This document shows positions 11,484-31,631 of a DNA stretch of 35,904 nt, piece by piece. The stretch lies in UHGV virus genome UHGV-0042151. One strand, given 5' to 3'. A model generated the notes under the pieces. It was not told the origin of the DNA, did not search any database, and worked only from the letters and a program-made list of their open reading frames with translations. Every line of letters starts with the position of its first letter. Position 1 is the stretch's first letter. Origin of the DNA: a virus. A program made the translations under genes and the position numbers.

Positions 11484-11814
11484 ATCAGCAGCAGAGCGCA
11501 AAGCCGCTCAGAGAGCCAGACAAGCTGCATCTGGTGTGCGTAAGCTGGAAATTGTGCTTGATGCTCAGGAAATTGAAATGCTGGAGCGTAACTGCGCCGC
11601 CCGGCGCCCTGGTCGCGATCCCTATGAAATGGCCGAGTACATCGCGCTGCTGATCCGCCAGGATGATGCACGCGTGCGCGGGCGTATAAAATCGATCAGC
11701 AGAAAACGTTGCGGTAAGTGCGGCGAGAGAGTTCCAGTTAATTCATGCCCGTGTAATGGTGACTCGCAATGCTGGGTGACTAAAGGCTGGCATGAAACGA
11801 AATTAATAGTGTGA
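11476..11814 (+). CDS. small basic protein with C-terminal Cys cluster (candidate regulator, last early gene)
   Basis: AGGAAAA SD then ATG 11476; '[23 protein letters not shown]'; directly followed by intrinsic terminator and terminase genes. Confidence 0.45.
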
Positions 11815-11822
11815 CATGTCAC
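11811..11822. promoter_or_regulatory. 12-bp perfect palindrome GTGACATGTCAC (copy 1 of 3)
   Basis: Overlaps stop codon of 11476..11814 gene; 40 bp upstream of terminator. Confidence 0.35.
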
Positions 11823-11863
11823 GAGTAGATTATGCATGATGAATTTGATGGGTTTTGAATACT

Positions 11864-11889
11864 GCCGCCAACTATGGCGGCTTTATTTT
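11864..11889 (+). terminator. rho-independent terminator at early/late boundary
   Basis: GCCGCC-aactat-GGCGGC hairpin followed by TTTATTTT. Confidence 0.55.
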
Positions 11890-11900
11890 GCATGGTATTA

Positions 11901-11915
11901 TTACCACAACGGTAA
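11901..11915. promoter_or_regulatory. palindromic site TTACC-N5-GGTAA upstream of terminase genes
   Basis: TTACCACAACGGTAA immediately after -10-like TATTAT (11895-11900), 18 nt before ATG 11933. Confidence 0.5.
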
Positions 11916-11932
11916 CAATTACCACGGTGGTT

Positions 11933-12529
11933 ATGATGCCTGCTGAACCTAAAACCTATAAACGCAAATCAACGCAATTTAAGCCGCTCACAGCAATGCA
12001 GGAGGCTTATTGCCAGTCATACATCAAAACGCCTGAAAACCAGACTCAGGCAGCGATTAACGCAGGATTCTCCCCAAATACAGCGGCAGTTAAAGCCAGT
12101 GTCATGATGCGCGATGAACGCATTCAAAAACGGATTGCCGAGTTGATGGAGGAGCGCAACAAACGAATGCGCGTCAGTGCTGATTACGTTCTCATGCGCT
12201 TGGTGGAGATCGACCAGATGGACGTGATCGATATCCTCAACGACGATGGGAGCCTTAAACCAATCCGTGAGTGGCCGAAAATCTGGCGCACTACGCTTAG
12301 TGGCTTTGATCTGTCATCGACCATCATGAACATGAACGAGGATTCGATAGAGACAATCCTCAAAAAAATTAAATGGCCTGACAAGGTGAAGAACCTAGAA
12401 CTGATTGGTAAGCATGTTGATGTCAACGCGTTCAAAGAACGTCTGGATGTTAATGTGAATGTGACAATTGCTGATCGCATAGCAGCAGCCAGGAAGCGAC
12501 TCAAAGAACGTCAGGATGGTAATCAGTGA
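11933..12529 (+). CDS. terminase small subunit
   Basis: 'LTAMQEAYCQSYIKTPENQTQAAINAGFS' matches the conserved terminase-small N-terminal pattern; start set at ATG 11933 (track start 11855 is TTG). Confidence 0.7.
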   Translation: MMPAEPKTYKRKSTQFKPLTAMQEAYCQSYIKTPENQTQAAINAGFSPNTAAVKASVMMRDERIQKRIAELMEERNKRMRVSADYVLMRLVEIDQMDVIDILNDDGSLKPIREWPKIWRTTLSGFDLSSTIMNMNEDSIETILKKIKWPDKVKNLELIGKHVDVNAFKERLDVNVNVTIADRIAAARKRLKERQDGNQ

Positions 12530-14001
12530 CAGATACAGCGTTATCTCCTGAAGAGCAGTTGATCGAGGATATTGCAGGGTTCACTCACGATCCGCTTGGC
12601 TATGCCCTCTATGCGTTCCCGTGGGGGGAAGAGGGGACTGAATTAGCACATGCCACCGGTCCACGTAAGTGGCAGGCTGATGCGTTCCGAGAGATACGTG
12701 ATCACCTGCAGAATCCAGAGACGCGCTATCAGCCGCTTATGCTGGCACGTGCTTCTGGTCATGGTATTGGTAAATCCGCATTCATCTCAATGCTGATCAA
12801 CTGGGGCATGTCCACTTGCGAGGATTGTAAGGTTGTGGTGACCGCCAACACCGACAACCAGCTACGAACGAAGACCTGGCCGGAAATTATCAAGTGGTCG
12901 AACCTTGCCATCACGAAAGACTGGTTTACCTGTACCGCTACCGCGATGTACAGCAATGATCCTGGGCACGACAAGCGGTGGCGAGCTGACGCAATCCCCT
13001 GGTCTGAGCACAACACTGAGGCATTCGCCGGACTACACAACGAGCGCAAACGCATCATCGTGGTATTCGATGAAGCGTCGAACATTGCGGATCTGGTGTG
13101 GGAAGTTGCTGAGGGTGCGCTTACGGACGAAGACACTGAGATTATCTGGGTGGCGTTCGGAAACCCTACACGTAATACCGGGCGTTTTCGCGAATGTTTC
13201 CGCAAATACAAACACCGCTGGAAAACTGCGCAGATTGACAGCCGGACGGTGGAAGGTACTAACAAACAGCAGTTGCAGAAATGGGTTGATGACTACGGGG
13301 AAGACAGCGACTTCGTTAAAATCCGTGTGCGCGGCATATTCCCTGATGCATCTGAATTGCAGTTTATCCCTACCGGTCTTACTGATGAGGCAATGAAACG
13401 GGTGGTAACCGCTGCGCAGGTGGCTCATGCTCCGGTGATAATCGGTGTTGACCCGGCATATTCAGGCGTTGATGACGCGGTGATATACCTGCGGCAGGGG
13501 TTGCATAGTAAGGTGCTATGGACTGGCAACAAGACCACTGACGATCTGATTATGGCGAAGCGTATCGCTGACTTTGAAGACCAGTATCAGGCTGACGCGG
13601 TGTTCATCGACTTCGGTTACGGAACCGGTCTGAAGTCAATCGGTGACGGCTGGGGGCGCACATGGCAACTTGTTCCGTTCGGTGGTGCGTCAACTGACCC
13701 TCAGATGCTCAACAAGCGCGGGGAGATGTTCAACTCATGCAAGACATGGCTGAGGTTGGGCGGGATGCTGGATGACCAGGAAACAGCGGACGATCTGTCG
13801 GCGGCAGAGTACAAAGTTCGCGTGGACGGTAAAATCGTTATCGAACCGAAGGAAGATATCAAAGAACGACTTGGGCGTTCGCCGGGTAAAGGCGATGCGC
13901 TACTGCTGACGTTTGCTTTCCCTGTGTCGAAGCGTCTGCGAATTCCCGGGCAGCAGAACCAGCAAGGCAAGGCCATCACAGATTACGATCCCTATGCTTA
14001 A
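12526..14001 (+). CDS. terminase large subunit
   Basis: 491 aa; Walker-A-like 'ASGHGIGKSAF'; GTG 12526 overlaps TerS stop; position after TerS. Confidence 0.75.
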   Translation: MTDTALSPEEQLIEDIAGFTHDPLGYALYAFPWGEEGTELAHATGPRKWQADAFREIRDHLQNPETRYQPLMLARASGHGIGKSAFISMLINWGMSTCEDCKVVVTANTDNQLRTKTWPEIIKWSNLAITKDWFTCTATAMYSNDPGHDKRWRADAIPWSEHNTEAFAGLHNERKRIIVVFDEASNIADLVWEVAEGALTDEDTEIIWVAFGNPTRNTGRFRECFRKYKHRWKTAQIDSRTVEGTNKQQLQKWVDDYGEDSDFVKIRVRGIFPDASELQFIPTGLTDEAMKRVVTAAQVAHAPVIIGVDPAYSGVDDAVIYLRQGLHSKVLWTGNKTTDDLIMAKRIADFEDQYQADAVFIDFGYGTGLKSIGDGWGRTWQLVPFGGASTDPQMLNKRGEMFNSCKTWLRLGGMLDDQETADDLSAAEYKVRVDGKIVIEPKEDIKERLGRSPGKGDALLLTFAFPVSKRLRIPGQQNQQGKAITDYDPYA

Positions 14002-14051
14002 TCCGCTGGTGGGGATAATGTCGTTGATATCCTCTGATGAGGATAAAACAA

Positions 14052-14079
14052 AGCCAGCTCATCGGCTGGCTGTTTGTGA
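14052..14079. terminator. bidirectional intrinsic terminator
   Basis: AGCCAGC-tcatcg-GCTGGCT hairpin with U-rich flank on + strand; lies between convergent genes. Confidence 0.45.
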
Positions 14080-14087
14080 CATGTCAC
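14076..14087. promoter_or_regulatory. 12-bp perfect palindrome GTGACATGTCAC (copy 2 of 3)
   Basis: Directly abuts terminator hairpin downstream of terminase large subunit. Confidence 0.35.
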
Positions 14088-14091
14088 GGTG

Positions 14092-14511
14092 TTATTTAAT
14101 GGCATTAAATCCAGCGTTGATGGCTTCCGCAATATTGATGGCACTTGTTTTATCGAAGTGCCCATTCTGAATAAGCGCCGCATGCAGGCATTGTAACTTC
14201 ATGTTGTATAAGTGTTCGCTCATGTAATCATTATCACTTTTTGCTTTAGCGTAAACAGCGCGAGAAATATCAAACACATCGCCTTTTTCCATTTCAGAAC
14301 GTTGTGCTGTTATCCAGTCATGGAACGTAACGCTAGTACCATGGTCTTCGCTAAGAGTTAACCCGGCCAGTCCCTCACTCTGAATTACTTCGTAATGCAT
14401 TTCATTATCAGCAAAAACGCCATAAAAAATGCAGTCTTCAGCCTGAACGATACGAGAATATTTTAATGGCCATTCATTTAGATACTTAGCCAACATATCA
14501 ATTGTCTTCAT
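14092..14511 (-). CDS. hypothetical moron protein (139 aa), opposite strand to packaging genes
   Basis: AAGGTGAG SD then ATG 14511; no recognisable domain; embedded between TerL and portal. Confidence 0.5.
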   Translation of the reverse strand: MKTIDMLAKYLNEWPLKYSRIVQAEDCIFYGVFADNEMHYEVIQSEGLAGLTLSEDHGTSVTFHDWITAQRSEMEKGDVFDISRAVYAKAKSDNDYMSEHLYNMKLQCLHAALIQNGHFDKTSAINIAEAINAGFNAIK

Positions 14512-14522
14512 GATCTCACCTT

Positions 14523-14546
14523 AAAAAAATGCCCGGCGAACCGGGC
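14523..14546 (-). terminator. rho-independent terminator (minus strand) downstream of tRNA-Arg
   Basis: GCCCGG-ttcg-CCGGGC followed by U7 on minus strand; U-run abuts the SD of the 14511 gene. Confidence 0.55.
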
Positions 14547-14709
14547 GAACTGGAAGCAATGAGTTATGCCTTCCGTGGCTGTACGGGTTTACAGCATGAA
14601 GTCATCGCAATGGCGTCCTGCTGTAAAAAGGGCGGTGATAGTCCTTCAAGGGAAACTATCACCGCCAAGCACCTGGAGCTTCTGGCATCACGGTCCTTAG
14701 GCGTGATTC

Positions 14710-14786
14710 TGGCGTGGCATGCAGGATTCGAACCTGCGACCAACCGCTTAGAAGGCGGTTGCTCTGTCCAACTGAGCTAATGCCAC
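14710..14786 (-). tRNA. tRNA-Arg (anticodon UCU)
   Basis: Hand-folded cloverleaf: acceptor GTGGCAT/ATGCCAC, D-arm GCTC-AGTTGGACA-GAGC, anticodon arm ACCGC-CTTCTAA-GCGGT, T-arm GCAGG-TTCGAAT-CCTGC, 3' GCCA; similar to but distinct from E. coli argU as recalled. Confidence 0.9.
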
Positions 14787-15108
14787 AACGCTGAGAGCAC
14801 TTAGCCTGTTAAGGCGCCACACTTTGTCGCGGCTCCATAAATGCTCTCATCGTTGTACCCTCGTCTCTTCCGAGGCGTCACACCGAATCGCCGGGATGGT
14901 GAATCCCCGTGCGCGGAATAAAACCGCTCGACTTGCACATTCCGGCTACCTGGTTCGTTTGCCCGAGCAAGGGAGGGTGCCCCTTAAACGTATCCAGACC
15001 GCTATCGGCGCATGTGCCATACGCCGTACTGCTCAAAATAAAAGCTCACTCCACCTGTTCAATTTAACGACAAGCCAGTCAGGTTAGTAACCGGAATGAA
15101 CTCTTTGG

Positions 15109-15123
15109 TTACCTAAAGGGTAA
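15109..15123. promoter_or_regulatory. palindromic site TTACC-N5-GGTAA upstream of portal operon
   Basis: TTACCTAAAGGGTAA, 90 nt upstream of ATG 15214. Confidence 0.45.
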
Positions 15124-15213
15124 TAATTAGCGCGTTAAATGTCAACTTTCTACGATAAATAAATCATATGTGGTTAAATTGGTAATAATTTAATTGCGTA
15201 CGGAGTCATTGAT

Positions 15214-15420
15214 ATGTGCATGGGTAGCTCACCATCAGTGCCTGCAACACCAGAAGTTCAGGCAGCACCACAGGAGCAGGATGCCGCCGTTGTTGATGCC
15301 CGCGACGAAGAAACACGTCGCCGTCGCGCTGCTGCTGGTCGTAGTTCTACGCTGCTTACCGGTTCTCAGGGCGACACATCAACTGCTAATACCAGCGGTA
15401 AAACGCTGCTTGGTCAGTAA
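15214..15420 (+). CDS. small hypothetical protein (68 aa)
   Basis: CGGAGTCATTGATATG RBS context repeated at the portal start (15421-15437). Confidence 0.4.
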   Translation: MCMGSSPSVPATPEVQAAPQEQDAAVVDARDEETRRRRAAAGRSSTLLTGSQGDTSTANTSGKTLLGQ

Positions 15421-15434
15421 CCGGAGTCATTGAA

Positions 15435-17114
15435 ATGGCGGAAACAACTAAAGAGCGATTGAACAAACAGTTCGCACAACTTGAAAGCGAGCGTCAGTCG
15501 TTCGAGCCGCACTGGCGCGAGTTGAGTGATTACATCAACCCGCGTGGTTCCCGCTTTCTGACTTCTGAGGTCAACCGTAACGATCGACGCAATACACGCA
15601 TTATTGATTCGACCGGGACTATGGCGGCGCGCACTCTCGCCAGCGGCATGATGTCAGGCATCACAAGCCCTGCGCGTCCGTGGTTTCGCCTGGCTACGCC
15701 AGATCCTGAAATGATGGATTATGGTCCTGTTAAGTTGTGGCTCGAGGCGGTGCAGAACCGCATGAACGATATGTTCAATAAGTCGAATCTCTACCAGTCT
15801 CTTCCGCAGTTATACGGAAGCCTCGGCACATACAGCACTGGTGCAATGGCGGTGCTGGAGGATGACGAGGACATCATTCGCACAATGCCATTCCCGATAG
15901 GCAGTTACTACCTGGCTAACTCACCTCGTGGCAGTGTGGACACCTGTTTTCGCAAGTTCTCTATGACTGTTCGTCAGCTTGTTCAGGAGTTCGGGCTAAA
16001 TAACGTCAGCGAATCCGTAAAAAGCATGTGGGAAAGCGGCACCTACGAGAAGTGGATTGAAGTGATGCATTCGGTTTACCCGAACATTGACCGCGATACA
16101 TCGAAGCTGGATAGCAAGAACAAGCCATTCAAATCGGTTTATTACGAGTTTGGCGGCGATAACGACAAGTTGTTGCGTGAGTCCGGATTCGATGAGTTTC
16201 CAATTATGGCTCCGCGCTGGGAAGTTAACGGCGAAGATGTTTATGGATCATCATGCCCGGGTATGCTGGCGCTTGGACCTGTTAAGGCATTGCAGCTTCT
16301 CCAGAAGCGCAAGTCGCAGTTGATTGATAAAGCCACCAATCCGCCGATGGTTGCTCCGACTTCCCTCAAGAATCAGCGCGCCTCCCTTCTTCCTGGCGAC
16401 ATCACGTATATCGATCAGATTACTGGTCAGGATGGTTTCAGGCCTGCTTATCTGGTTAACCCCAGTACAGCAGATCTGGTAGCAGACATTCAGGACACTC
16501 GTCAAATCATTAACAGCGCCTACTTTGTCGATCTGTTCATGATGTTGCAGAACATCAATACCCGCTCGATGCCTGTTGAAGCGGTGATCGAAATGAAAGA
16601 AGAAAAACTTCTGATGTTGGGTCCGGTTCTGGAGCGTCTGAACGACGAATGTCTTAATCCTCTCATTGACCGCGCTTTCTCGATGATGGTGCGTAAAAAC
16701 ATGCTGCCGCCACCGCCAGACGTGATGGAAGGTATGCCCCTGAAGGTCGAATACATTTCCGTCATGGCTCAGGCGCAGAAGTCTATCGGCCTGTCCAGTC
16801 TGGCGTCCACGGTTAACTTCATTGGTCAACTTGCGCAAGCGAAACCAGAAGCTCTCGACAAACTCAACGTTGATCAGGCGATCGATGCATTCGCTGATAT
16901 GTCCGGAGTGTCTCCAACCGTCATTGTTCCGCAGGAACAGGTTGAGCAGGCTCGCCAGCAACGAGCACAGCAACAACAGCAGCAACAAATGATGGCGATG
17001 GGGATGGCGGCGGCACAGGGTGCCAAGACGCTAAGCGAAGCTAAAACTTCGGATCCGAGTGTTTTGTCAGCTATGGCGAATGCAGTTAGTGGTCAGGGGG
17101 GGCAATCACAATGA
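15435..17114 (+). CDS. portal (head-to-tail connector) protein
   Basis: 559 aa; size and position ahead of scaffold and capsid, T7-like order. Confidence 0.7.
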   Translation: MAETTKERLNKQFAQLESERQSFEPHWRELSDYINPRGSRFLTSEVNRNDRRNTRIIDSTGTMAARTLASGMMSGITSPARPWFRLATPDPEMMDYGPVKLWLEAVQNRMNDMFNKSNLYQSLPQLYGSLGTYSTGAMAVLEDDEDIIRTMPFPIGSYYLANSPRGSVDTCFRKFSMTVRQLVQEFGLNNVSESVKSMWESGTYEKWIEVMHSVYPNIDRDTSKLDSKNKPFKSVYYEFGGDNDKLLRESGFDEFPIMAPRWEVNGEDVYGSSCPGMLALGPVKALQLLQKRKSQLIDKATNPPMVAPTSLKNQRASLLPGDITYIDQITGQDGFRPAYLVNPSTADLVADIQDTRQIINSAYFVDLFMMLQNINTRSMPVEAVIEMKEEKLLMLGPVLERLNDECLNPLIDRAFSMMVRKNMLPPPPDVMEGMPLKVEYISVMAQAQKSIGLSSLASTVNFIGQLAQAKPEALDKLNVDQAIDAFADMSGVSPTVIVPQEQVEQARQQRAQQQQQQQMMAMGMAAAQGAKTLSEAKTSDPSVLSAMANAVSGQGGQSQ

Positions 17115-17407
17115 CAGATTACGAAGACGATCAACTGAAAGAAGAAAACGCCCGTAAGCAACGTGACATGGCAAAGCGTGAAATTGATGACATTCGCTTT
17201 GTCATGAGCAGTGAACAGGGGCGTCGCGTTGTCTGGTCTGTGCTGGAGAAAGGCCGGGTGTTTTCCGCTATCTCTCCGATGGATGCTATGGCAATGGCAT
17301 TTAATGAGGGGCAACGCAATCTGGCGCTGGAACTGTTTCAGCGCGTTATGGCGCATTGCCCTGAACAGTATTTGAAGATGGCCAAAGAGGCCAGTGAACA
17401 GGAGTGA
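17111..17407 (+). CDS. hypothetical head-assembly-associated protein (98 aa)
   Basis: ATGA overlap with portal stop. Confidence 0.45.
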   Translation: MTDYEDDQLKEENARKQRDMAKREIDDIRFVMSSEQGRRVVWSVLEKGRVFSAISPMDAMAMAFNEGQRNLALELFQRVMAHCPEQYLKMAKEASEQE

Positions 17408-17409
17408 TC

Positions 17410-18105
17410 ATGAATTTATTTGAGCGTTTGCTGTATCGCCGTCTTTGCAATGAGCAGCCAGCCGATGGCGGGGCAGCTCCGGCTGCGTCAGAACCGTCAG
17501 CGCATGCAGGTGATAACCCTGCTCCAGTTGGTGATCCATCACAACAGGAAGGTGATAAGCCACAACCTGTTGCTGATGGCGATAAACCTGCTGATGACAA
17601 AAAGCCTGAAAACGATAAGCAGGGTGAAAAAAAGGACGGCGATAAACCAGAGGGTGCGCCTGAGAAGTACGAGTTTCAGGCTGCCGAAGGCGTAGAGCTG
17701 GATACAGAAGCGTTGAAGGAATTCGAGCCGGTGGCGCGAGAACTTAACCTGACCAACGAGCAAGCGCAAAAGCTGGTTGATGCTTATCCGAAGATTCTGG
17801 CAGGTGTTCAGCAGCGCCAGGCAGAAGCCTGGCAGAAAACAACCGAGCAGTGGGCTGCGGATGTAAAAGCTGACAAAGAAATCGGTGGCGACAAGTTGAT
17901 TTCTAACCTTAGCGCCGCACAGCGTGCGCTTGACCAGTTCGGGACACCTGAGCTCAAAGAATATCTGAACACCACCGGGCTGGGTAATCACCCTGATCTG
18001 GTCAAAACGTTCGTGAAAATCGGAAAGGCGATGTCTGAAGATGGCATGGTCACCGGTGGTAATGAAGGCCAGCGTAGTGCGGCCGAAGTGCTCTATGGCA
18101 AATAA
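17410..18105 (+). CDS. scaffolding protein
   Basis: Acidic, low-complexity, helical 232-aa protein immediately upstream of capsid gene; GGAG SD then ATG 17410. Confidence 0.6.
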   Translation: MNLFERLLYRRLCNEQPADGGAAPAASEPSAHAGDNPAPVGDPSQQEGDKPQPVADGDKPADDKKPENDKQGEKKDGDKPEGAPEKYEFQAAEGVELDTEALKEFEPVARELNLTNEQAQKLVDAYPKILAGVQQRQAEAWQKTTEQWAADVKADKEIGGDKLISNLSAAQRALDQFGTPELKEYLNTTGLGNHPDLVKTFVKIGKAMSEDGMVTGGNEGQRSAAEVLYGK

Positions 18106-18119
18106 GAGAGGAAATGACA

Positions 18120-19106: not shown

Positions 19107-19123
19107 CGCCTGTTATTAACCTG

Positions 19124-19143
19124 TGGGCCGCAACAGGCCCACT
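19124..19143 (+). other. GC-rich stem-loop after capsid gene (mRNA stabiliser or partial terminator)
   Basis: GTGGGCC-gcaaca-GGCCCAC, 7-bp stem, no U-tract. Confidence 0.4.
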
Positions 19144-23855: not shown

Positions 23856-24400
23856 TGTGCGATCCGGTTATTGCTGGTGGCGCAATGCTCGCCATGAGTG
23901 GCATTCAGGCATACACCCAGTACCAACAGGGAAAGTATGCCTCGAAGGTTGCAGAAGCGAACGCAGATATAGCCACAGCTCAGGCAAATGATGCAATAAA
24001 CAGAGGTAACGCTGAAGCTGAGCAACGGCGCAGAGAGACCCGACAGCGGCTTGGTACACAGGCGGCGACAATGGGGGCTACCGGCGCTGATTTATCTACA
24101 GGTAACGCGCTGGATATATTTGGCGACACTGCCCAGTTTGGCGCTCTTGATTCTCTGACGACGGTGAATAACGCGCAACGCGAGGCTTACGGTTATCAGG
24201 TTCAGGCTGCCAACTATAAAGCAGAAGCCAGTTCAGCCCGTAAACAGGGGAATGTGGGAGCAGCAACAACATTGCTCACTGCGCCTCTGAAGGCATACGG
24301 TGCGTACCAGATGTTTGGTGGGACGTGGAGTCCGTTTACTCAAAGCACCCCTGCGCCAATCGGAGCAGCAGCAGGAACCAGATTACCCGGAGGATTATAA
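23855..24400 (+). CDS. internal virion protein B-like (181 aa)
   Basis: N-terminus 'MCDPVIAGGAMLAMSGIQAYTQYQQG' resembles T7 gp14 N-terminus as recalled. Confidence 0.55.
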   Translation: MCDPVIAGGAMLAMSGIQAYTQYQQGKYASKVAEANADIATAQANDAINRGNAEAEQRRRETRQRLGTQAATMGATGADLSTGNALDIFGDTAQFGALDSLTTVNNAQREAYGYQVQAANYKAEASSARKQGNVGAATTLLTAPLKAYGAYQMFGGTWSPFTQSTPAPIGAAAGTRLPGGL

Positions 24401-26913
24401 TGCCAGTCGTACCAACAGTATCCGGACGTCAGGTTGAGAGCCGTGGAGTTCAGTCAGCAGGCTTGCAGACGTTTTCTCAGCCAGGTATTGGTGATGCTTT
24501 TGTTCGGGCAGGGGCAGAGGCAATTGATGTTTTGGGGCAGGCAAAACAGCGTGCCAATATTGCCTTGGCTCAGGAGGCATCTCTTAACCTCAGTCAGATA
24601 AGCAGTGATTTGCTGAATAATCCTGAAACAGGATTGCTTAACCTGAAAGGGAAAAATGCTATTGGAAAAGGCCATGAGTATACGCAGCAGTTTGATGCTC
24701 AGGTCGAACAATTGGCTATGTCGCTGCCGGATGAACAGGCTCGTAATGCTTTCATGCAGCAGGCGCAGCAGCAGCGCATTCAGTTCACTACGCAGGCCGG
24801 GCGGCACGAGATAGGGCAAATAAATGCCTACGAAGAAGGCCAGTTTCAGGCTACGCTGCTGAACAATGGTAAAAATGCCGCAGCATTGTATGGCGACAAC
24901 GCCGCATACGTATTGGCTAATAAGCAAACTTTCCAGCAAATTGAGGATTACGGCATTGCACATGGCTGGAGTGACGAGCAAATCCAGGCCAAGAAAATCG
25001 AGTTTAAAGAAGCAACAGCAAAAGCAACTGCTCAAAATGCTATTGGAGCAAACTATCTTCAGGTAAGATGGCAAAACGGCGAGTTAAGCGATACTGCTGC
25101 TGGATCTCGCCGTGCTGTAGCAGATAGTGGCTCTTCCGATCGTACCCGCGGTATACGCAACAATAACCCCGGCAATCTTGAATACAGCAAAACTAATCCG
25201 TGGGTTGGGCAGACTGGTGATGATGGTCGCTTTGCCAAATTCGAAACCCCTGAACACGGTATTCGTGCATTAGGGCGGAACCTGATGTCGTATCAGCGGC
25301 AGGGTATTGATACCGTCAGCGAGATAATTAATCGCTGGGCACCGCCTACTGATAAAAATGACACTATGTCGTATATCAAAGCAGTGTGCGAACAACTTGG
25401 CGTTTCTGCTGATGAGCCTCTCGATGCATCAAATCCTGATACCCTGAAGGCGCTTTGTGCAGCCATTATCCATCATGAAAACGGTAGCCAGCCATACAGT
25501 GATCAGCAGTTAACTGCAGGTGTTAGTGCTGCGCTGGGGCTTTCTCAGCTACCGACAAAAAATAAACGTTATACCGGTGTAGCCTGGTTCGATGCTTTAA
25601 GTGAATCAGATCAGGCCAGCGTGTTGCGACAGACTGATGCACTAGCCAGACAACAGCAGGCTGAATATAAAACGATGCTCGACAGCCGGGTTCGCGATGC
25701 GACGGCTGCGTATATGCGTGGCGTTGAATTTCCTAACCCACCTGGTGAGGATGATTTTATTGCAGCTTATGGAGTCAGAGAAGGAAACCTGCGATATACC
25801 GAGTTTAAGAATACGCAGATCGCCGGACAGTATATAGGCTCTTTCCGCAACATGCCGACAAGCAGCATTACAGCATATGTTGAGCAATTACGCCCGGATA
25901 CTGGTGATACAGGGGAGGGGTATGCGGCACGCGCAGCTCTTTATGACAACGTTGTTTCGGCTGCAAATCAGGTGATAAAGCAGCGGCAGTCGGATCCTGT
26001 GCAGTTCTCTCTTGCCTCCGGACAGGCAAAGCCTATCGACATGAGCAATAAGGATAACTTTGGACAGAGCGTTGCCTTGCGTGCCGCTCAGGTCAGTGAC
26101 CTTGCTAAGTCATATGGCACTCCACTGACGTTCTTTTCCAAAGACGAGGCCAATCAGATCGGTGTTTTCTTTCGTGATGCGCCAGTTTCCCAACAGGCAG
26201 CATATCTCGATACCATCAGGCAGAGCACTGGTGGTGGGCAGGTGTATATGTCAGCACTACAGCAGATCAGTGCCAACGCTCCATCTGCTGCCGTTGCCGG
26301 GATACTGATGGATAAGCCTGGTGGTATTTTGGCAGAAAAAAACTGGTTTAATCCTGATGTTTCCGTGTCTCCTGAAACCGCAGCGCAGACAATTCTTGCT
26401 GGTGCGGCGGCTCGTAAAGGTACTGATGACGCGAAAGGTATTCCGATGCCTAAAGATGCTGATCTCCGCATTGAGTTTTCTGACATGGTGAAGGATGCAT
26501 TTGCTGGTGATGCTCAGGGGGCATCAATGGCATACGAGATCGCAAAGGACTATTACGCTGGTGTGATGGCGAAAAAAGGCGTGGTATCAGGCGAAATTGA
26601 CAATGATATCTGGAAACAGGCTGTTAACGTAGCTACAGGTGGCGTGCATGACTATAACGGAATGGGGAATGTTCTTTTGCCGTGGGGAATGTCTGCAGAG
26701 CAATTCGATAAGCAGGTTAATCAGGCTTGGAATGAACAAGTTGTCGGCACAGGGATAAAAACACCGCTTGGTCAGTATGGTTTGCAAAGTTACGGCGATA
26801 GTCAGTACCTGGTGAAACTTGGTACTGGTTATCTGCTAAAAGATGATGGTTCTCCCGTTGTTCTTGATCTGACACAGAAGCGTCAGAGATTCTCCGGAGA
26901 TATTCCGCAATGA
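24400..26913 (+). CDS. internal virion (ejection) protein C-like, 837 aa, possible cell-wall-hydrolase region
   Basis: GGAGG SD then ATG 24400; segment 'GIRNNNPGNLEY...HHENG' looks enzyme-like, unverified. Confidence 0.55.
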   Translation: MPVVPTVSGRQVESRGVQSAGLQTFSQPGIGDAFVRAGAEAIDVLGQAKQRANIALAQEASLNLSQISSDLLNNPETGLLNLKGKNAIGKGHEYTQQFDAQVEQLAMSLPDEQARNAFMQQAQQQRIQFTTQAGRHEIGQINAYEEGQFQATLLNNGKNAAALYGDNAAYVLANKQTFQQIEDYGIAHGWSDEQIQAKKIEFKEATAKATAQNAIGANYLQVRWQNGELSDTAAGSRRAVADSGSSDRTRGIRNNNPGNLEYSKTNPWVGQTGDDGRFAKFETPEHGIRALGRNLMSYQRQGIDTVSEIINRWAPPTDKNDTMSYIKAVCEQLGVSADEPLDASNPDTLKALCAAIIHHENGSQPYSDQQLTAGVSAALGLSQLPTKNKRYTGVAWFDALSESDQASVLRQTDALARQQQAEYKTMLDSRVRDATAAYMRGVEFPNPPGEDDFIAAYGVREGNLRYTEFKNTQIAGQYIGSFRNMPTSSITAYVEQLRPDTGDTGEGYAARAALYDNVVSAANQVIKQRQSDPVQFSLASGQAKPIDMSNKDNFGQSVALRAAQVSDLAKSYGTPLTFFSKDEANQIGVFFRDAPVSQQAAYLDTIRQSTGGGQVYMSALQQISANAPSAAVAGILMDKPGGILAEKNWFNPDVSVSPETAAQTILAGAAARKGTDDAKGIPMPKDADLRIEFSDMVKDAFAGDAQGASMAYEIAKDYYAGVMAKKGVVSGEIDNDIWKQAVNVATGGVHDYNGMGNVLLPWGMSAEQFDKQVNQAWNEQVVGTGIKTPLGQYGLQSYGDSQYLVKLGTGYLLKDDGSPVVLDLTQKRQRFSGDIPQ

Positions 26914-28712
26914 GTTACTTTGGCCTTAATCCAGTAAACCAGAATCAGCAGCTTGACGAAGCAGCATCAAATCCAGCTGGCTTTAACAGCGATGTTGGTT
27001 TTTTCGACAATGCTGTAGGAGCGGCATTGTCTGGTTTGTACTCCGGGCTGGTGGCAAAGCCAGATCAGTTGCTCTGGGCAGGGATGGATAAAATCGTATC
27101 CCCGATTGCTCAGTTTGTTAACGAAAACACCTCGCTCAATGACACTTCAGTTTCATACATTGCCGAGCAGAGAAAACTAGCAGAGCAGCAGGTTAAGCGG
27201 CTGACGCCTGATGCCGCGACAACTGGAACCGCCGGGCAGGTTCTTTATGGGTTGTTCGATATGGGCGGGCAGGCTGTTGTTGGTACAACGCTCGGTGGTC
27301 CGGTCGGAGGTGCTGCGGCGGTAACTTCGCTACAGGGTTTTTCTGAGTTTGAACGGCTGACAGCACAGGGTGTTGATTTCAGGACGGCGCAGGAAGCGGG
27401 ATTAGTGCAGGGCATTACTGCTGGTGCCGGAACGCTGATCCCTATAAGCCTCGGGTTACGTGCTGGTGGTGCGCTGGCGGAAGGTGTGGCGGCTCAGCTT
27501 GCGCGGACGGGTGAAAGTTCAGTGCGACGCGCCGCAGCAACAGCAGTACGTGCAACGCCAGATATTGCCTATGCCGCAGGTACAAATATTGCGTTCGGTA
27601 TGGCACAGCGTGGGCTTACTGCAAAAACGCTTCGTGATGGTGGCTATAGCGAAATGGCTAATCAGTATGATGTGTTGGATCGACAGGCAATTGCTATTGA
27701 TGCTGTTCTTGGAGTGGCGTTTGGTGGTGTCGGCAGATTTATTAACTCTCGCGGCGAGTCTACAAGCGCACCAAATTTTTCACCAGTTGATGTCGATGCT
27801 GCACTGGCGGCGAATGCCGCTCATCATGCTGAAATTGATATTGCTCCCGGTGTGCCGATCAACGTGCTTTCGCGTAATTCGCACATTCAGGCTCTGCGAA
27901 AAGCCATGTCTGATGTTAGCCAGGGGAGACCTGTAGACGTTGCCAGCATTGTTGAGTCTGCATCTTTCAGTGAAATTCCTGGGCGCAAGAGTCTGCTTTC
28001 TCAGGCAGTTAATGAGGCTCTGTCATCTGTAGATGATGGAGTAACGGCGCGCGCTATAGAAAATCGGTTGCTTGAAGAACAGGCCGCGCAGCTTTTGCCG
28101 CGTGGCGATAGACAGGTTTACCAGTCTGAAATCGCTAATAGCCAACGAATTATTGAAAATCTCACTGAACAGCGCGCACAAATTCTTGCAGAAGAGCCAA
28201 CCGGTAGCGGTAAAGCTTTGTCTCGTGCTCGATCAGATAAACAGGCCAGACTTCGCGATATTGATCAACGAATCCGGCAGGCACAAGAACGCCTGGAGTT
28301 TTCCCGTAACGCGTTGGCACCGCACGAGCCTGGCGGTCAGTTTTTTGAAGCTCGAGCAGAACTGGCACGACGACAGCAGGCAGAAAGTGAACTTAATGCT
28401 CAGGCTGTTTCATTCTATAAAACAGCAGAGGTCAGGACGCCAGACGAAGTAGCTCCTTTTGAGCCCGGTAAGATATTGCAACAGACAGAACAAAAAATGA
28501 TGGCAGATCCGGCAGGAGATATTGATCTGCGTATAGCTGAAGACTCGCTGCTTGAATCTCCGGACATGATAATCACCGTGCTGGATGATGATGGTAATCC
28601 ACAATCGCGCAGTGCGCGTGAAGTACTGGATGAAGCGAACAGGGAAAGTGAGCAGGCAATACAGGATTCCAGCCTGTTTGATGTTGCTGTGGCGTGTTTC
28701 TTGAGAGGTTAA
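26910..28712 (+). CDS. internal virion (ejection) protein, 600 aa
   Basis: Translationally coupled; Ala/Gly-rich N-terminus, coiled-coil C-terminus. Confidence 0.5.
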   Translation: MSYFGLNPVNQNQQLDEAASNPAGFNSDVGFFDNAVGAALSGLYSGLVAKPDQLLWAGMDKIVSPIAQFVNENTSLNDTSVSYIAEQRKLAEQQVKRLTPDAATTGTAGQVLYGLFDMGGQAVVGTTLGGPVGGAAAVTSLQGFSEFERLTAQGVDFRTAQEAGLVQGITAGAGTLIPISLGLRAGGALAEGVAAQLARTGESSVRRAAATAVRATPDIAYAAGTNIAFGMAQRGLTAKTLRDGGYSEMANQYDVLDRQAIAIDAVLGVAFGGVGRFINSRGESTSAPNFSPVDVDAALAANAAHHAEIDIAPGVPINVLSRNSHIQALRKAMSDVSQGRPVDVASIVESASFSEIPGRKSLLSQAVNEALSSVDDGVTARAIENRLLEEQAAQLLPRGDRQVYQSEIANSQRIIENLTEQRAQILAEEPTGSGKALSRARSDKQARLRDIDQRIRQAQERLEFSRNALAPHEPGGQFFEARAELARRQQAESELNAQAVSFYKTAEVRTPDEVAPFEPGKILQQTEQKMMADPAGDIDLRIAEDSLLESPDMIITVLDDDGNPQSRSAREVLDEANRESEQAIQDSSLFDVAVACFLRG

Positions 28713-28717
28713 ATTAA

Positions 28718-31192
28718 ATGAGACAGGAATGTATACAAGCGGTCCAGCAGGCGGCGCAGCGCACGTTAACGGCGCGAGAAATACAGAACATTGAAGACCG
28801 CATTTATCGAAATATGCGCTCCATTGCTCGTGATGACCCGATGTCGTGGCGACAACTTTCCGAATCAGAACGGTTGTATCGTGCAGCACAATTGGCATCT
28901 GAAGAATTACAGCGAGAAGCGGCATTAAAGAAACGTCGTGTGGCCCTCACTATAGCCGCACGTCAGAGATTGGATAAATTTATCAATAGCTATCAAGGGG
29001 CTGATGGGAAACTTGGCGCTCTTAACCGTACTATTGCTTTTAATGCAGACGGTAAATCGAATTTCCTCTCTGTTGAATCCAGAACAAAAGCCACCCGTGA
29101 TTATGCATTGAGTCAATTGCAGGAGGCATTCGAAGCAGTTGATCCTCGCTTTTTTGGTCTGTTTGAAGATGAAGCGGGCGTACGTGACCTGGTATATGAA
29201 ATGCGGGGGCAAAATACTGGCAATGCTAAAGCAAGAAAAGGTGCTAAGGCGTGGAGAGAAGTTACAGAGCTGCTGCGCCGCCGGTTTAATGATGCTGGTG
29301 GGGACATTGGCTATCTCGAAAACTGGGGGATCCCTCAACATCATTCTATGGAAAAGGTTGGGGCGGTATCAAAGGATAAGTGGGTTAGCGATGTTATAGG
29401 TAAGCTGGATCGCAAATATTATACCCGAGCCGATGGACAACTGATGAACGATGCCGAGTTGTCTGAATTTCTTGGAGAGGCTTATAACACGATCGCTACT
29501 GGTGGGCTGAATAAGCTTACTGATACCGGAATGCGAATTTCCGGCGCACGTGCTAACCGTGGTAATGCATCACGACAGATACATTTCAAAGATGCAGATT
29601 CCTATCTGCAATATCAGCAACTTTATGGCGATCGCTCTCTATGGGAAATCATGGTCGGTCACCTGGAAGGTATCAGTAAAGATATTGCGCTGGTGGAAAC
29701 ATATGGCCCAAACCCCGATCATGTTTTCCGCTCCCTTCTTGATCAGGTTAAGGCAGAAACGGCAACAGCTAACCCGAGTAAAACCGGTAGCGTCGAGCGT
29801 CTGGCGAACAAAACAGAGAACTTGTACAACTTTATTTCCGGAAAAACACAGCCTGTAGCGAATCCGCACATCGCGCGATGGTCTGACAATATCCGCAACT
29901 GGCTGGTTGCCAGCAGACTCGGATCCGCGTTGCTGTCATCGTTCTCTGATCTTGGAACCATGTATCTGTCTGCGAAGGTTACCAACCTTCCAATGAACCA
30001 GTTATTTCGCAACCAGCTTGAAGCTATGGACCCAACGAACCGTACAGAACTTGCGCGGGCGCGCCGCGCTGGCCTGGCGATGGAATCTCTACTTGGCAGC
30101 GTTAACCGCTGGGCGATGGATAATATGGGGCCGTCTGTGTCTCGTTGGGCGGCAACGGCGGTAATGCGTGCCAGTGGGCTTACAGCATGGTCAGATGCGC
30201 ACAAGCGCGCCTATGGCGTAACCATGATGGGAAGCCTGGGAGAAGTAGTGTCACGGACACCAGACCTTCGTAGCCTCGATGACTCTGATTTTCGTATCCT
30301 GAAAAGCAAAGGGATTACTGACACAGACTGGAGCGTATGGAAGCTGGCGCAACAGGAGGACTGGGGGAACGGTAATAATACGATGCTGACACCGGAAAGC
30401 ATTATGCGTATCCCTGATTCAGCAGTTAAACATCTTGGTGAGCCTGAACGCGTGAAATTTGAGGCAATGCGTAAACTGCTCGGTGCCGTAACTGAAGAAG
30501 TTGATATGGCTGTTATTACACCGGGCGCACGTGAACAGATGTTCGTAGGGTCTGGTCTTCAGCGTGGAACATGGAAAGGTGAATTAACGAGAAGTGTTTT
30601 CCTGTTTAAATCGTTCCCTATCTCGGTAGTTATGCGTCACTGGCATAGAGCTATGGGGATGCCGTCTGCTGGTGGGCGTGCGGCATATATAGCAACGTTT
30701 TTAGCAAGCACAACCATGCTTGGTGCTCTTTCCATGCAGATTACTGATCTTATTAATGGGAGAAATCCAAAAGAAATGACCGGTGACAACATGGTTAAAT
30801 TCTGGATAAATGCATTTTTAAAAGGTGGTGGGGCAGGGTTGTATGGTGATTTTCTTTTCTCTGACCACACCAGGTACGGGAGCGGCGCACTAGCGTCGAT
30901 GCTTGGCCCGGTAGCTGGTCTGGTTGATGACGTAGTGAAGATTGCTCAGGGCATACCGTTAAATGCTGTGGAAGGGAAGAATGAGCAGACTGGTGGTGAT
31001 CTGGTTAAGCTTGGGAAAGGTTTGATGCCTGGTGCGAATCTCTGGTACTTGAAGGCGGCTCTCGATCACATGATCTTTAATCAGATGCAGGAGTATTTTT
31101 CACCAGGCTATTTGCGTAAAATGGAGCAACGTTCGAAGAAAGAGTTTAACCAGACATACTGGTGGCGACCTCAGGATGTCACTCCGCAATAA
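28718..31192 (+). CDS. internal virion (ejection) protein D-like, 824 aa
   Basis: Last large gene before accessory island; synteny with T7 gp16 region. Confidence 0.5.
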   Translation: MRQECIQAVQQAAQRTLTAREIQNIEDRIYRNMRSIARDDPMSWRQLSESERLYRAAQLASEELQREAALKKRRVALTIAARQRLDKFINSYQGADGKLGALNRTIAFNADGKSNFLSVESRTKATRDYALSQLQEAFEAVDPRFFGLFEDEAGVRDLVYEMRGQNTGNAKARKGAKAWREVTELLRRRFNDAGGDIGYLENWGIPQHHSMEKVGAVSKDKWVSDVIGKLDRKYYTRADGQLMNDAELSEFLGEAYNTIATGGLNKLTDTGMRISGARANRGNASRQIHFKDADSYLQYQQLYGDRSLWEIMVGHLEGISKDIALVETYGPNPDHVFRSLLDQVKAETATANPSKTGSVERLANKTENLYNFISGKTQPVANPHIARWSDNIRNWLVASRLGSALLSSFSDLGTMYLSAKVTNLPMNQLFRNQLEAMDPTNRTELARARRAGLAMESLLGSVNRWAMDNMGPSVSRWAATAVMRASGLTAWSDAHKRAYGVTMMGSLGEVVSRTPDLRSLDDSDFRILKSKGITDTDWSVWKLAQQEDWGNGNNTMLTPESIMRIPDSAVKHLGEPERVKFEAMRKLLGAVTEEVDMAVITPGAREQMFVGSGLQRGTWKGELTRSVFLFKSFPISVVMRHWHRAMGMPSAGGRAAYIATFLASTTMLGALSMQITDLINGRNPKEMTGDNMVKFWINAFLKGGGAGLYGDFLFSDHTRYGSGALASMLGPVAGLVDDVVKIAQGIPLNAVEGKNEQTGGDLVKLGKGLMPGANLWYLKAALDHMIFNQMQEYFSPGYLRKMEQRSKKEFNQTYWWRPQDVTPQ

Positions 31193-31201
31193 GGAACAAC
31201 A

Positions 31202-31615
31202 ATGAAGGAATTATTGCTGTTATCGGTATTTTTGATATCCGCTTGCTCGACATCCTATGATGTTTATGACGGTGTTGATAAGGCATATTGCGACAAAGTT
31301 AAAATGGATTTTTCTCTTGCCAAGACGGCGAAGGATAGTTGTATTGATCACTACGTCAAGACTTATACCAAGCCAGCCTCATCGGCATCTGATATTGCTG
31401 AAGGTGCTGTGTTTGAGTGTAACAAGGTGATATCCATCGCAGCGAGTTCTTCATACGATGCTGCTGTATGTGCAATGGCTGAAAGAAACGGCATGTCAGT
31501 GCAAAAAATTAATAGCATGATAAGCAGTAATGACGAAGCCAAAATAAGAACTGATATCAGCTCGGTGAAAAAAGATGCCATGAACAGAGTTGTAAAATAT
31601 CAGTCATCTTTATAA
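31202..31615 (+). CDS. lipoprotein (137 aa), candidate superinfection-exclusion or moron product
   Basis: Signal peptide plus lipobox 'LISAC' then Cys; own terminator. Confidence 0.55.
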   Translation: MKELLLLSVFLISACSTSYDVYDGVDKAYCDKVKMDFSLAKTAKDSCIDHYVKTYTKPASSASDIAEGAVFECNKVISIAASSSYDAAVCAMAERNGMSVQKINSMISSNDEAKIRTDISSVKKDAMNRVVKYQSSL

Positions 31616-31618
31616 GTC

Positions 31619-31630
31619 GTGACATGTCAC
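31619..31630. promoter_or_regulatory. 12-bp perfect palindrome GTGACATGTCAC (copy 3 of 3)
   Basis: Immediately 5' of terminator hairpin. Confidence 0.35.
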
Positions 31631-31631
31631 A

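What the first reader, a model, noticed from the sequence alone, without database searches (positions are those of the whole stretch)
11811..31630. Perfect 12-bp palindrome GTGACATGTCAC recurs three times, each at an operon boundary next to a terminator
Copies at 11811-11822, 14076-14087 and 31619-31630 lie at the end of the early region, after the terminase genes, and after the lipoprotein gene, each within 0-40 bp of an intrinsic terminator hairpin. Three exact copies of a 12-mer at equivalent boundary positions are unlikely by chance. The element could be a protein-binding site (for example for an antitermination or packaging factor) or a recombination module-boundary sequence.
Basis: seen in the sequence. 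Interest (0 to 1): 0.5.

Follow-up and report, generated by a model that had tools for sequence, protein, structure and literature searches.

The report
Phage protein's matS-like DNA binding site
The thrice-repeated palindrome is real and is most likely the DNA docking site of a small, uncharacterised phage DNA-binding protein whose gene ends on the first copy; the site is the E. coli chromosome-organising signal matS with one central base missing.

Summary
GTGACATGTCAC occurs exactly three times in the window, and none is expected by chance. In each case it lies between the stop codon of a gene and an intrinsic terminator.

The window is an epsilon15/phiV10-like prophage. Salmonella phage epsilon15, about 80% identical in DNA, has exact copies at the same three places.

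The decisive result is genetic linkage. The motif travels with the 112-aa gene that ends on copy 1 (PHROG 536, no Pfam family). This holds in unrelated phages: ZF40, a lambda-like phage, P2-like Yersinia and Aeromonas phages, N15/phiKO2 and Vibrio phages.
- 34 of 36 loci from Enterobacterales genomes (34 distinct genome records) that carry the gene have the motif within 10 kb.
- 77 lambda-like loci without the gene (about 1.3 Mb) have none.

The element is 14 bp, Y-GTGAC-NN-GTCAC-R. Only a 2-bp spacer is enriched.

The protein is modelled as a ribbon-helix-helix fold plus a Cys4 zinc ribbon. Its best, but weak, structural match is MatP bound to matS (GTGAC-RNY-GTCAC).

Best reading: this is the protein's own binding site. 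What the bound protein does is unresolved; a transcription barrier, DNA bridging and an effect on host condensin all remain possible. Terminator adjacency is specific to the epsilon15 lineage. No binding has been shown experimentally.

The parts
11811..11822 (.). Copy 1 of the palindrome (14-bp form 11810-11823, T...G). It contains the TGA stop codon of the PHROG 536 gene.
   Evidence: It is exact in 75 of 79 close relatives and a single-base variant in the other 4. Epsilon15 has an exact copy at the homologous place. phiV10 has the variant GTGACATGTTAC across its record ends.
14076..14087 (.). Copy 2. It lies between convergent terL(+) and the variable minus-strand gene, 4 nt from the hairpin.
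   Evidence: It is exact in 50 of 66 relatives, a single-base variant in 7 and absent in 9. At least 7 different genes abut it on the right. The hairpin sequence varies but the 4-nt gap is constant.
31619..31630 (.). Copy 3. It lies between the last, variable gene of the structural operon and its terminator.
   Evidence: It is present in 74 of 81 related loci. At least 4 different upstream genes end on it, and the hairpin follows after 1 nt.
11476..11814 (+). Gene for the 112-aa candidate binding protein: a basic N-terminal helix, a ribbon-helix-helix-like core and a Cys4 zinc ribbon. It is the last gene of the early-right operon.
11864..11889 (+). Intrinsic terminator T1 (hairpin 11864-11881 plus T tract), 41 nt after copy 1.
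14041..14071 (-). Terminator T2 (hairpin 14071-14052, T tract to about 14041). It is canonical for the minus-strand gene. On the plus strand the palindrome takes the place of the U tract.
31631..31655 (+). Terminator T3 (hairpin 31631-31648 plus TTGTTTTT), directly after copy 3.
14092..14511 (-). Variable accessory gene (PHROG 4846) whose 3' UTR holds copy 2.
31202..31615 (+). Variable accessory gene (PHROG 8691, with a lipobox) whose 3' UTR holds copy 3.

Best explanation
The palindrome is the specific DNA recognition site, full form Y-GTGAC-NN-GTCAC-R, of the small protein encoded by ORF 11476-11814. That gene's stop codon sits inside copy 1.

Inferred mechanism: the protein is made late in the early phase of lytic growth. 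It dimerises through a ribbon-helix-helix core, and each subunit reads one GTGAC half-site across a fixed 2-bp spacer. This resembles the way host MatP reads matS, which has the same half-sites and a 3-bp spacer.

What is shown:
- The motif is statistically real.
- It is conserved at homologous places.
- It is tightly co-inherited with this gene across unrelated phages.
- It is absent from comparable phage DNA that lacks the gene.
- Its information content is confined to 14 bp.

What is inferred: the binding itself, the dimeric RHH mode of recognition, and any consequence of binding.

For the consequence in this prophage, I commit to the bound protein acting as a boundary element at the 3' ends of three transcription units. 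It would act as a barrier to RNA polymerase that backs up the terminators. I put this at about 0.35, given that binding occurs. MatP-like bridging of the sites, or interference with host MukBEF, comes next at about 0.25. Ordinary gene regulation or autoregulation is at about 0.2.

The confidence given (0.7) is for the core claim that this is the cognate binding site of that protein, not for the downstream role.
For: Statistics and conservation
- Three copies are found where none is expected.
- Epsilon15, at about 80% DNA identity, keeps exact copies at all three homologous places.

Linkage of the motif to the gene
- ZF40, a myovirus with unrelated structural genes, has three exact 14-mers, one of them 3 nt after the homologue's stop.
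- The lambda-like phage Chlobot has one copy, 7 nt after the homologue.
- In a P2-like Yersinia phage the stop codon lies inside TGTGACGCGTCACA.
- N15 has three GTGAC-TG/CA-GTCAC sites, one on the stop codon of gene 46.
- All 49 N15/phiKO2-like contigs have the motif on that stop codon: 105 motifs in 883 kb against a naive expectation of 0.84.
- Vibrio and Aeromonas phages that carry homologues have 3 and 1 copies.
- In 36 loci from 34 distinct bacterial genome records, all Enterobacterales apart from two unclassified MAGs, 34 have the motif within 10 kb of the gene and 22 have it within 60 nt of the gene's end. That is 50 motifs against 0.62 expected.
- Negative control: in 80 lambda-like loci (1.38 Mb) the motif occurs only in the 3 loci that hold a homologue, and never in the other 77.

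Shape of the element
- Only the 2-bp spacer is enriched: 20 hits, against 0-1 for every other spacer from 0 to 8. The inverted arrangement is not enriched, and neither are half-sites.
- In 52 non-redundant contexts the position just outside the 12-mer is a pyrimidine (or a purine on the other side) in 102 of 104 half-sites. Nothing further out carries information.
- Inside cII-like genes of ZF40-like phages the 12-mer is exact while the flanking codons diverge.

The protein
- Four cysteines are invariant.
- The AlphaFold2 model has pLDDT 81.9.

Literature
- matS is GTGAC[AG]N[TC]GTCAC (PMC3603311), and the E. coli consensus is GTGACATTGTCAC (PMC8669397).
- The RHH domain of MatP binds matS (PMC12756933).
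Against: - No experiment shows binding.
- hhalign against MatP is not significant (probability 0.14%).
- There is no Pfam RHH hit. A sub-threshold RepB-RCR_reg match turned up in one homologue scanned here, and the database marks that family for three Vibrio homologues.
- The gene is not always next to a site: in L188, L190 and L191 the site is 1.4-8.4 kb away.
- The sites can be lost. Single-base variants occur at copy 1 in 4 of 79 loci. Copy 2 is mutated or missing in 16 of 66 loci.
- The proposed barrier role lacks a clean mechanical rationale. The site lies upstream of the terminator in the direction of canonical termination, and other lineages place sites with no terminator nearby.
- The reverse test, from motif to gene, was incomplete. 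Only 20 of 80 partial loci retrieved with the 14-mer showed the gene. Those loci cover a fraction of each contig, and chance hits are expected at that database size.
Confidence: 0.7

Rival explanations
1. Late-gene antitermination element, analogous to lambda Q/qut/tR'. The protein would load onto RNA polymerase at the palindrome and make it read through the adjacent terminators into the late genes.
For: - At copy 1 the order is regulator gene, site, terminator, terS/terL, which resembles Q-pR'-tR'.
- The left half, GTGACA, resembles a -35 element. A -10-like hexamer lies 17-18 nt downstream in the window and, by my reading, in epsilon15.
- All three copies precede terminators.
Against: - Copies 2 and 3 leave 1-4 nt before the hairpin, which is no room for a promoter or pause site.
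- N15 and Chlobot have their own Q-like genes, and the site there is not in front of late genes.
- The ZF40 and N15 sites lie inside coding DNA with no terminator.
- terS appears to have its own extended -10 promoter and repressor operator downstream of T1.
- The distance from the site to that promoter differs by about 1.5 helical turns between the window and epsilon15.
- There is no similarity to any Q family.
Confidence: 0.07
2. Recombination linker. The palindrome would be a module-boundary sequence whose main role is to provide a crossover point for exchanging accessory genes between phages.
For: - Copies 2 and 3 are conserved islands.
- At least 7 different genes abut copy 2 and at least 4 abut copy 3, and the downstream sequences are also variable.
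- The phage encodes RecT and an exonuclease.
Against: - The island includes the terminator as well, so any conserved 3' UTR would give the same picture.
- The motif is absent from 77 mosaic lambda-like loci that lack the gene.
- It is conserved exactly inside coding sequences.
- The strict 2-bp spacer and the Y/R flanks point to recognition by a protein.
- 12 bp is too short for homologous exchange on its own.
Confidence: 0.1
3. Site for a host protein. Host MatP, or another host factor, would bind this near-matS sequence, and the adjacent phage gene would be only a passenger or a modulator.
For: - The half-sites are identical to those of matS, and the site equals the consensus matS minus one central T (PMC8669397, PMC3603311).
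- All hosts seen are Enterobacterales, Vibrio or Aeromonas. From memory, these are the clades that have MatP.
Against: - The motif tracks the phage gene, not the host: none occurs in about 1.3 Mb of E. coli phage DNA without the gene.
- The spacer is strictly 2 bp and true 13-bp matS is essentially absent, so a MatP dimer would meet mis-phased half-sites.
- Prophages are reported to avoid matS (PMC3603311).
Confidence: 0.07
4. RNA element. The palindrome would act in the 3' UTR as a hairpin or protein-binding RNA next to the terminator, affecting stability, processing or attenuation.
For: - In this phage lineage it is always transcribed, lying between the stop codon and the terminator.
- The orientation bias is 18 contexts with site then terminator against 2 with the reverse order.
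- Zinc ribbons can bind RNA.
Against: - The hairpin is only -1.2 kcal/mol.
- There is sequence conservation rather than covariation. The central bases change without compensation for loop and stem.
- The sites occur on either strand relative to transcription and inside ORFs.
- There is no Rfam family at these positions.
Confidence: 0.04

Closest known systems
MatP / matS (Ter macrodomain organiser of E. coli and relatives)
   Same: - The half-sites, GTGAC...GTCAC, are identical. The phage site equals the consensus matS GTGACATTGTCAC with one central T removed (PMC8669397, PMC3603311).
- Both systems use a few dispersed sites, not promoter operators.
- The hosts of all phages seen belong to MatP-bearing clades.
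   Different: - The spacer is 2 bp, not 3, giving 12 or 14 bp against 13.
- There is no detectable sequence homology.
- The phage protein lacks MatP's N-terminal four-helix bundle and its C-terminal coiled coil, and has a Cys4 zinc ribbon instead.
- It is encoded by phages and expressed from a lytic early operon.
- There are 1-3 sites per 40-kb genome, usually one on the gene's own stop codon.
Ribbon-helix-helix regulators (Arc/MetJ/CopG superfamily, including plasmid and antitoxin RHH proteins)
   Different: - The sites are not at the protein's own promoter but at the 3' ends of genes or inside genes.
- There is an extra C-terminal zinc ribbon.
- No Pfam RHH model is matched.
Lambda Q with its qut site and tR'
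   Same: The regulator gene is followed directly by its presumed DNA site, then a terminator, then the late (terminase) genes. The placement favours action in cis.
   Different: There is no homology to Q. The site is not embedded in a conserved promoter. Extra copies have no promoter. The same gene and site coexist with genuine Q genes in N15 and a lambda-like phage.
ParB/parS-type 'gene followed by its own site' cassettes
   Same: A palindromic site lies immediately downstream of the gene for its binding protein, with a few extra copies elsewhere in the replicon. The system is present in the plasmid-prophages N15 and phiKO2.
   Different: There is no partner ATPase linked to the gene. Most carriers are integrating prophages. 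The protein fold is unrelated to ParB.

Membership tests
MatP/matS | 13-bp site GTGAC-RNY-GTCAC | tested here: not met
   The half-sites are identical, but the spacer is strictly 2 bp: 20 occurrences with a 2-bp spacer against 1 with a 3-bp spacer in 9 genomes. No 13-mer was found in the 36 genome loci.
MatP/matS | Sequence membership in the MatP family | tested here: not met
   No Pfam hit was found at E<=1 for 32 members. hhalign against E. coli MatP gave probability 0.14%. The MatP sequence used was verified against PDB entry 4d8j.
MatP/matS | Ribbon-helix-helix DNA-binding core | tested here: inconclusive
MatP/matS | N-terminal four-helix bundle and C-terminal coiled coil | tested here: not met
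   The model has one N-terminal helix (residues 5-18) and a Cys4 zinc ribbon plus a short helix at the C-terminus.
MatP/matS | Binding to the site, MukBEF unloading, ZapB interaction | not testable with these tools
   These need biochemistry or ChIP.
RHH transcriptional repressors (Arc/MetJ/CopG) | Operator overlapping the regulated (usually own) promoter | tested here: not met
   The sites lie at or after stop codons, in 3' UTRs or inside ORFs. Only the N15 site at 28550 lies upstream of a predicted promoter, at about -66.
RHH transcriptional repressors (Arc/MetJ/CopG) | Short symmetric DNA target read by a dimer | tested here: met
   A 14-bp palindrome carries all the information. The flanks carry none in 52-112 non-redundant contexts.
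Lambda Q-type antitermination | Binding element inside a late promoter, followed by a terminator and the late genes | tested here: inconclusive
   The order is met at copy 1 only. The promoter-like match is 9 of 12 in the window. It is not seen at copies 2 and 3 or in the ZF40, Yersinia-phage or N15 contexts.
Lambda Q-type antitermination | Homology to a Q family | tested here: not met
   There are no Pfam or NCBIfam hits.
Phage module-boundary (linker) sequences | Conserved short sequence flanked by interchangeable genes | tested here: met
   Copy 2 has at least 7 different right flanks and copy 3 has at least 4 different left flanks.
Phage module-boundary (linker) sequences | Presence independent of any particular gene | tested here: not met
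   The motif occurs in 0 of 77 gene-less loci, in 3 of 3 gene-bearing loci in the same set, and in 34 of 36 gene-bearing genome loci.
Intrinsic terminator | Stable G+C-rich hairpin followed by a U tract | tested here: not met
   The palindrome alone folds at -1.2 kcal/mol and has no U tract. The terminators are separate neighbouring hairpins.

The most novel reading that the evidence does not exclude
Temperate phages of MatP-bearing bacteria may carry a miniature counterpart of MatP/matS. A phage RHH-zinc-ribbon protein would mark phage DNA at 1-3 'matS minus one' sites in order to manipulate host chromosome-organising machinery. It might keep MukBEF or other SMC complexes off replicating phage DNA, bridge phage DNA into loops, or position it in the cell. 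The phage would meanwhile avoid true matS so that it does not recruit MatP itself.
Probability: 0.12. Interest if true: 0.85.

Novelty: new variant of a known kind. Interest (0 to 1): 0.62.

Why it matters
It pairs an uncharacterised but widespread small phage protein with a precise DNA target. The protein is found in epsilon15-like, N15-like, P2-like, lambda-like and Vibrio phages and forms 231 clusters at 50% identity. The pairing makes its function directly testable.

The near-identity of the site to matS links phage biology to bacterial chromosome organisation (MatP, MukBEF). It also fits a published finding that prophages avoid true matS.

For annotation, it explains a recurrent conserved island at the ends of variable accessory-gene slots in Uetakevirus prophages. 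It also provides a searchable signature, Y-GTGAC-NN-GTCAC-R next to a roughly 110-aa Cys4 protein gene.

Tried and rejected
- **Chance:** rejected.
- **CRP/FNR-type site:** the half-sites resemble TGTGA/TCACA, but the spacing is wrong by my own reading. It was not pursued.
- **Epsilon15 repressor operators:** these are ATTACC-N5-GGTAAT, a different sequence.
- **Physical genome end or pac site:** the phiV10 record starts inside copy 1, but only because the record was linearised after the last gene. The motif also occurs in phages with unrelated terminases.
- **Part of the minus-strand accessory-gene cassette:** rejected. Copy 2 persists with many different genes or with none of that family.
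- **Methyltransferase or restriction target:** 1-3 sites per genome, tied to one small gene, does not fit.
- **Homing-endonuclease target:** there is no nuclease domain, and identical intact sites lie next to the gene.
- **TraR/DksA-like C-terminal half:** the only PDB sequence hit had E = 0.6, and the cysteine spacing differs. It was not relied on.
- **Pfam RepB-RCR_reg:** sub-threshold, E = 0.034, in one homologue. It is a hint only.
- **Class I activation of the terS promoter from copy 1:** the distance differs by about 16 bp between the window and epsilon15, so the phasing is not kept.
- **Foldseek against PDB and BFVD:** nothing useful. AFDB was unavailable.
- **Literature:** no held paper contains the 12-mer, its variants, or 'MatP-like' in a phage context. 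The vB_EcoP_ZX5 paper does not mention it.
Full report
**1. The observation**

GTGACATGTCAC occurs at 11811, 14076 and 31619 and nowhere else in the window. No copy appeared in any of 100 dinucleotide-preserving shuffles. The window is part of an epsilon15/phiV10-like (Uetakevirus) prophage. It is 100% identical over the tested 4 kb to E. coli MS 198-1, where the prophage sits next to guaA. The whole prophage has only these three copies, even when one mismatch is allowed.

Reading the sequence gives one common layout: gene stop, then palindrome, then intrinsic terminator, in the direction of the gene that ends there.
- Copy 1 contains the TGA stop of ORF 11476-11814. Terminator T1 (hairpin 11864-11881) starts 41 nt downstream.
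- Copy 2 lies 4 nt after the stop of the minus-strand gene 14092-14511 and 4 nt before hairpin 14071-14052.
- Copy 3 lies 3 nt after the stop of ORF 31202-31615, and hairpin 31631-31648 follows directly.

**2. Conservation at homologous places**

Salmonella phage epsilon15 is only about 80% identical in DNA. It has exact copies at the three homologous places: on the stop codon of gp49, between terL and gp50, and on the stop codon of gp18 in front of its terminator. phiV10 has two exact copies. When its record ends are joined, the third is the one-mismatch variant GTGACATGTTAC.

Counts among close relatives:

| Copy | Exact | Single-base variant | Absent |
|---|---|---|---|
| 1 | 75 of 79 | 4 | 0 |
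| 2 | 50 of 66 | 7 | 9 |
| 3 | 74 of 81 | not separated | 7 without an exact copy |

Copies 2 and 3 are conserved islands. At copy 2 the left side (terL end plus hairpin) is shared. At least seven different minus-strand genes end on TAACACC plus the palindrome. Two loci have a different hairpin sequence but keep the same 4-nt gap. At copy 3 at least four different upstream genes end on the palindrome, the hairpin follows after 1 nt, and the downstream DNA varies.

**3. What the motif is tied to**

ORF 11476-11814 encodes a 112-aa protein of PHROG 536, labelled 'transcriptional regulator'. It has no Pfam, NCBIfam or PADLOC family. A tblastn search finds homologues in very different temperate phages. 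In every one I opened, the motif is present.

| Phage | What is there |
|---|---|
| Pectobacterium myovirus ZF40 | Three exact TGTGACATGTCACA: one 3 nt after the homologue's stop, two inside genes flanking the cI/cro region |
| Lambda-like Chlobot | Homologue in the b region; a single copy 7 nt after it |
| P2-like Yersinia phage | Stop codon inside TGTGACGCGTCACA |
| N15 | Three GTGAC-TG/CA-GTCAC sites: on the stop of gene 46, inside repA, and between gene 33 and the antirepressor operon |
| Vibrio phage K233 | Three copies |
| Aeromonas phage A051 | One copy |

All 49 N15/phiKO2-like viral contigs have the motif on the homologue's stop codon, with 105 motifs in 883 kb against a naive expectation of 0.84.

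An independent sample from species-representative bacterial genomes gave 36 loci from 34 distinct genome records in more than 15 genera, all Enterobacterales apart from two unclassified MAGs. Of these, 34 have the motif within 10 kb of the gene and 22 have it within 60 nt of the gene's end. That is 50 motifs against 0.62 expected.

The negative control was 80 lambda-like loci totalling 1.38 Mb. The motif occurs three times there, exactly in the three loci that hold a homologue. It never occurs in the other 77 loci.

There are exceptions to adjacency. In a few contigs the gene has no site at its stop but has one 1.4-8.4 kb away.

**4. Anatomy of the element**
- In nine gene-bearing genomes, GTGAC-Nk-GTCAC occurs 20 times for k = 2 and 0-1 times for every other k from 0 to 8.
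- The inverted order GTCAC..GTGAC is not enriched, and neither are single half-sites.
- In 52 non-redundant contexts that were not retrieved through the 14-mer, the base outside each half-site is a pyrimidine (or a purine on the other side) in 102 of 104 cases.
- The centre prefers AT, and no position further out carries information.

The unit is therefore a sharply bounded 14-bp palindrome, Y-GTGAC-NN-GTCAC-R. This is the footprint expected of a symmetric protein dimer.

As RNA the palindrome folds at only -1.2 kcal/mol. Rfam has nothing at these positions. In ZF40-like phages one copy lies in the 3' part of a cII-like gene, where it encodes (C/R)DMS(Q/H). The 12-mer is exact there while the neighbouring codons diverge across phages of 38-54% G+C, which indicates constraint at the DNA level.

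**5. The protein**

Alignments show a basic N-terminal segment, a conserved core and four invariant cysteines, C79, C82, C91 and C99. The AlphaFold2 model has pLDDT 81.9. It has helices at 5-18, 30-41, 52-74 and 100-108, and an extended segment at 19-29.

All of these scores are weak. Foldseek finds nothing. hhalign against E. coli MatP is not significant, although it aligns the RHH helices. I treat 'RHH plus zinc ribbon' as likely, not proven. The family is compact: 231 clusters at 50% identity among 1.84 billion representatives.

**6. Relation to matS**

The literature gives matS as GTGAC[AG]N[TC]GTCAC (PMC3603311, citing Mercier 2008) and the E. coli consensus as GTGACATTGTCAC (PMC8669397). 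The enteric phage site is that consensus with one central T removed.

[quoted passage not shown] It unloads MukBEF at matS (PMC8669397). Prophages of Escherichia and Salmonella were reported to contain no true matS at all (PMC3603311).

All hosts of phages carrying the gene seen here are Enterobacterales, Vibrio or Aeromonas. From memory, these are the clades that have MatP and MukBEF.

The membership tests for MatP fail on spacer length, sequence homology and domain architecture. This is a resemblance in mode of recognition and not family membership.

**7. How it most likely works**

Shown:
- The motif is real and conserved.
- It has the information profile of a dimer binding site.
- It is co-inherited with one small gene across unrelated phages, and is absent without that gene.

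Inferred:
- The gene product binds the motif as an RHH dimer.
- The frequent placement on the gene's own stop codon favours action in cis, as with Q/qut or parB/parS.

What binding achieves is not settled. In the epsilon15 lineage the only positional regularity is the fixed juxtaposition to terminators at the 3' ends of three transcription units. The orientation is also biased, with 18 contexts of site then terminator against 2 of the reverse order. On that basis I commit, at about 0.35, to a barrier or insulator role at unit borders. I have no clean mechanical model for it.

Other lineages place sites inside early-operon genes (ZF40-like, N15 repA). This would also fit a roadblock that turns early transcription down. 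Bridging of sites, or exclusion of an SMC complex, is the next option at about 0.25. Two unrelated phage groups show a recurrent 2.1-2.5 kb distance between two sites.

A Q-like antiterminator role is unlikely:
- N15 and the lambda-like phage have their own Q genes.
- Copies 2 and 3 leave no room for a promoter.
- terS seems to have its own extended -10 promoter (TGgTATTAT, 11893-11901). It overlaps a sequence matching epsilon15's annotated repressor operators, downstream of T1.

**8. Verdict**

The 'protein-binding site' reading is supported. The specific guesses of antitermination or packaging are not. 'Module boundary' is a correct description of copies 2 and 3 but not the cause.

I found no description of this site, or of a phage MatP-like system, in the searchable literature. 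I file it as a new variant of a known kind: an RHH-type protein with a palindromic site, recognised in a matS-like way. Interest is moderately high, because the claim is directly testable and touches chromosome-organisation biology.

Noticed in passing
window 33371-33557 (-), upstream of gene 32636-33331 (-): Rfam finds C4 antisense RNA (33371-33456) and isrK (33481-33557) just upstream of the Bro-N, antirepressor-like gene. This is a P1/P7/N15-type RNA-controlled antirepressor locus.
   Followed up: no
window 11893-11916: An extended -10 motif, TGgTATTAT, overlaps ATTACCacaacGGTAA. That sequence matches the 'repressor' binding sites annotated in epsilon15 (L003 12-27). The terminase operon probably has its own repressor-controlled promoter downstream of terminator T1.
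   Followed up: partly
window 11855-11936: The RefSeq terS start (TTG at about 11855) runs through terminator T1. The in-frame ATG at 11936 matches the epsilon15 terS start and is the more plausible start.
   Followed up: partly
window 14710-14786 (-): A tRNA-Arg(TCT) gene lies in the variable accessory region between terL and the portal gene.
   Followed up: no
window 33722-34450 (+): A 242-aa ORF (PHROG 6762) has two C-terminal endonuclease VII/HNH-like zinc modules. Its function is unknown.
   Followed up: no
L084 (ZF40) 7621-7634; L182 4755; L184 3380; L153 6515: In ZF40-like phages one copy of the site lies inside the 3' end of a cII-like gene and encodes (C/R)DMS(Q/H). A second copy lies 2.1-2.5 kb away (in some cases 3.3-5.3 kb) on the other side of the immunity region.
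   Followed up: partly
L087 (N15) 28550-28561: The N15 site between gene 33 and the antirepressor operon is centred at about -66 from a predicted sigma-70 promoter (TTGACG-18-TAGAGT). That promoter precedes the leader terminator of the ant operon.
   Followed up: partly
L259-L338 (lambda-like TerL loci): GTGAC-N1-GTCAC occurs 38 times in 80 loci. This is probably one conserved coding spot shared by near-identical phages. Chlobot has one such site too.
   Followed up: no
L088 (Vibrio phage K233): Besides three 12-bp sites, this locus holds one GTGAC-N3-GTCAC, which has the matS spacing. One 12-bp site lies 20 nt upstream of the terS start.
   Followed up: no
L164 about 4863-4907; L192 about 1382-1426; L199 about 7540-7600: Some contigs show a second, degenerate copy (GTGCCATGTCAC) 21 nt after an exact site, or a cluster of extra GTCAC half-sites around it. 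This hints at cooperative binding in some lineages.
   Followed up: no
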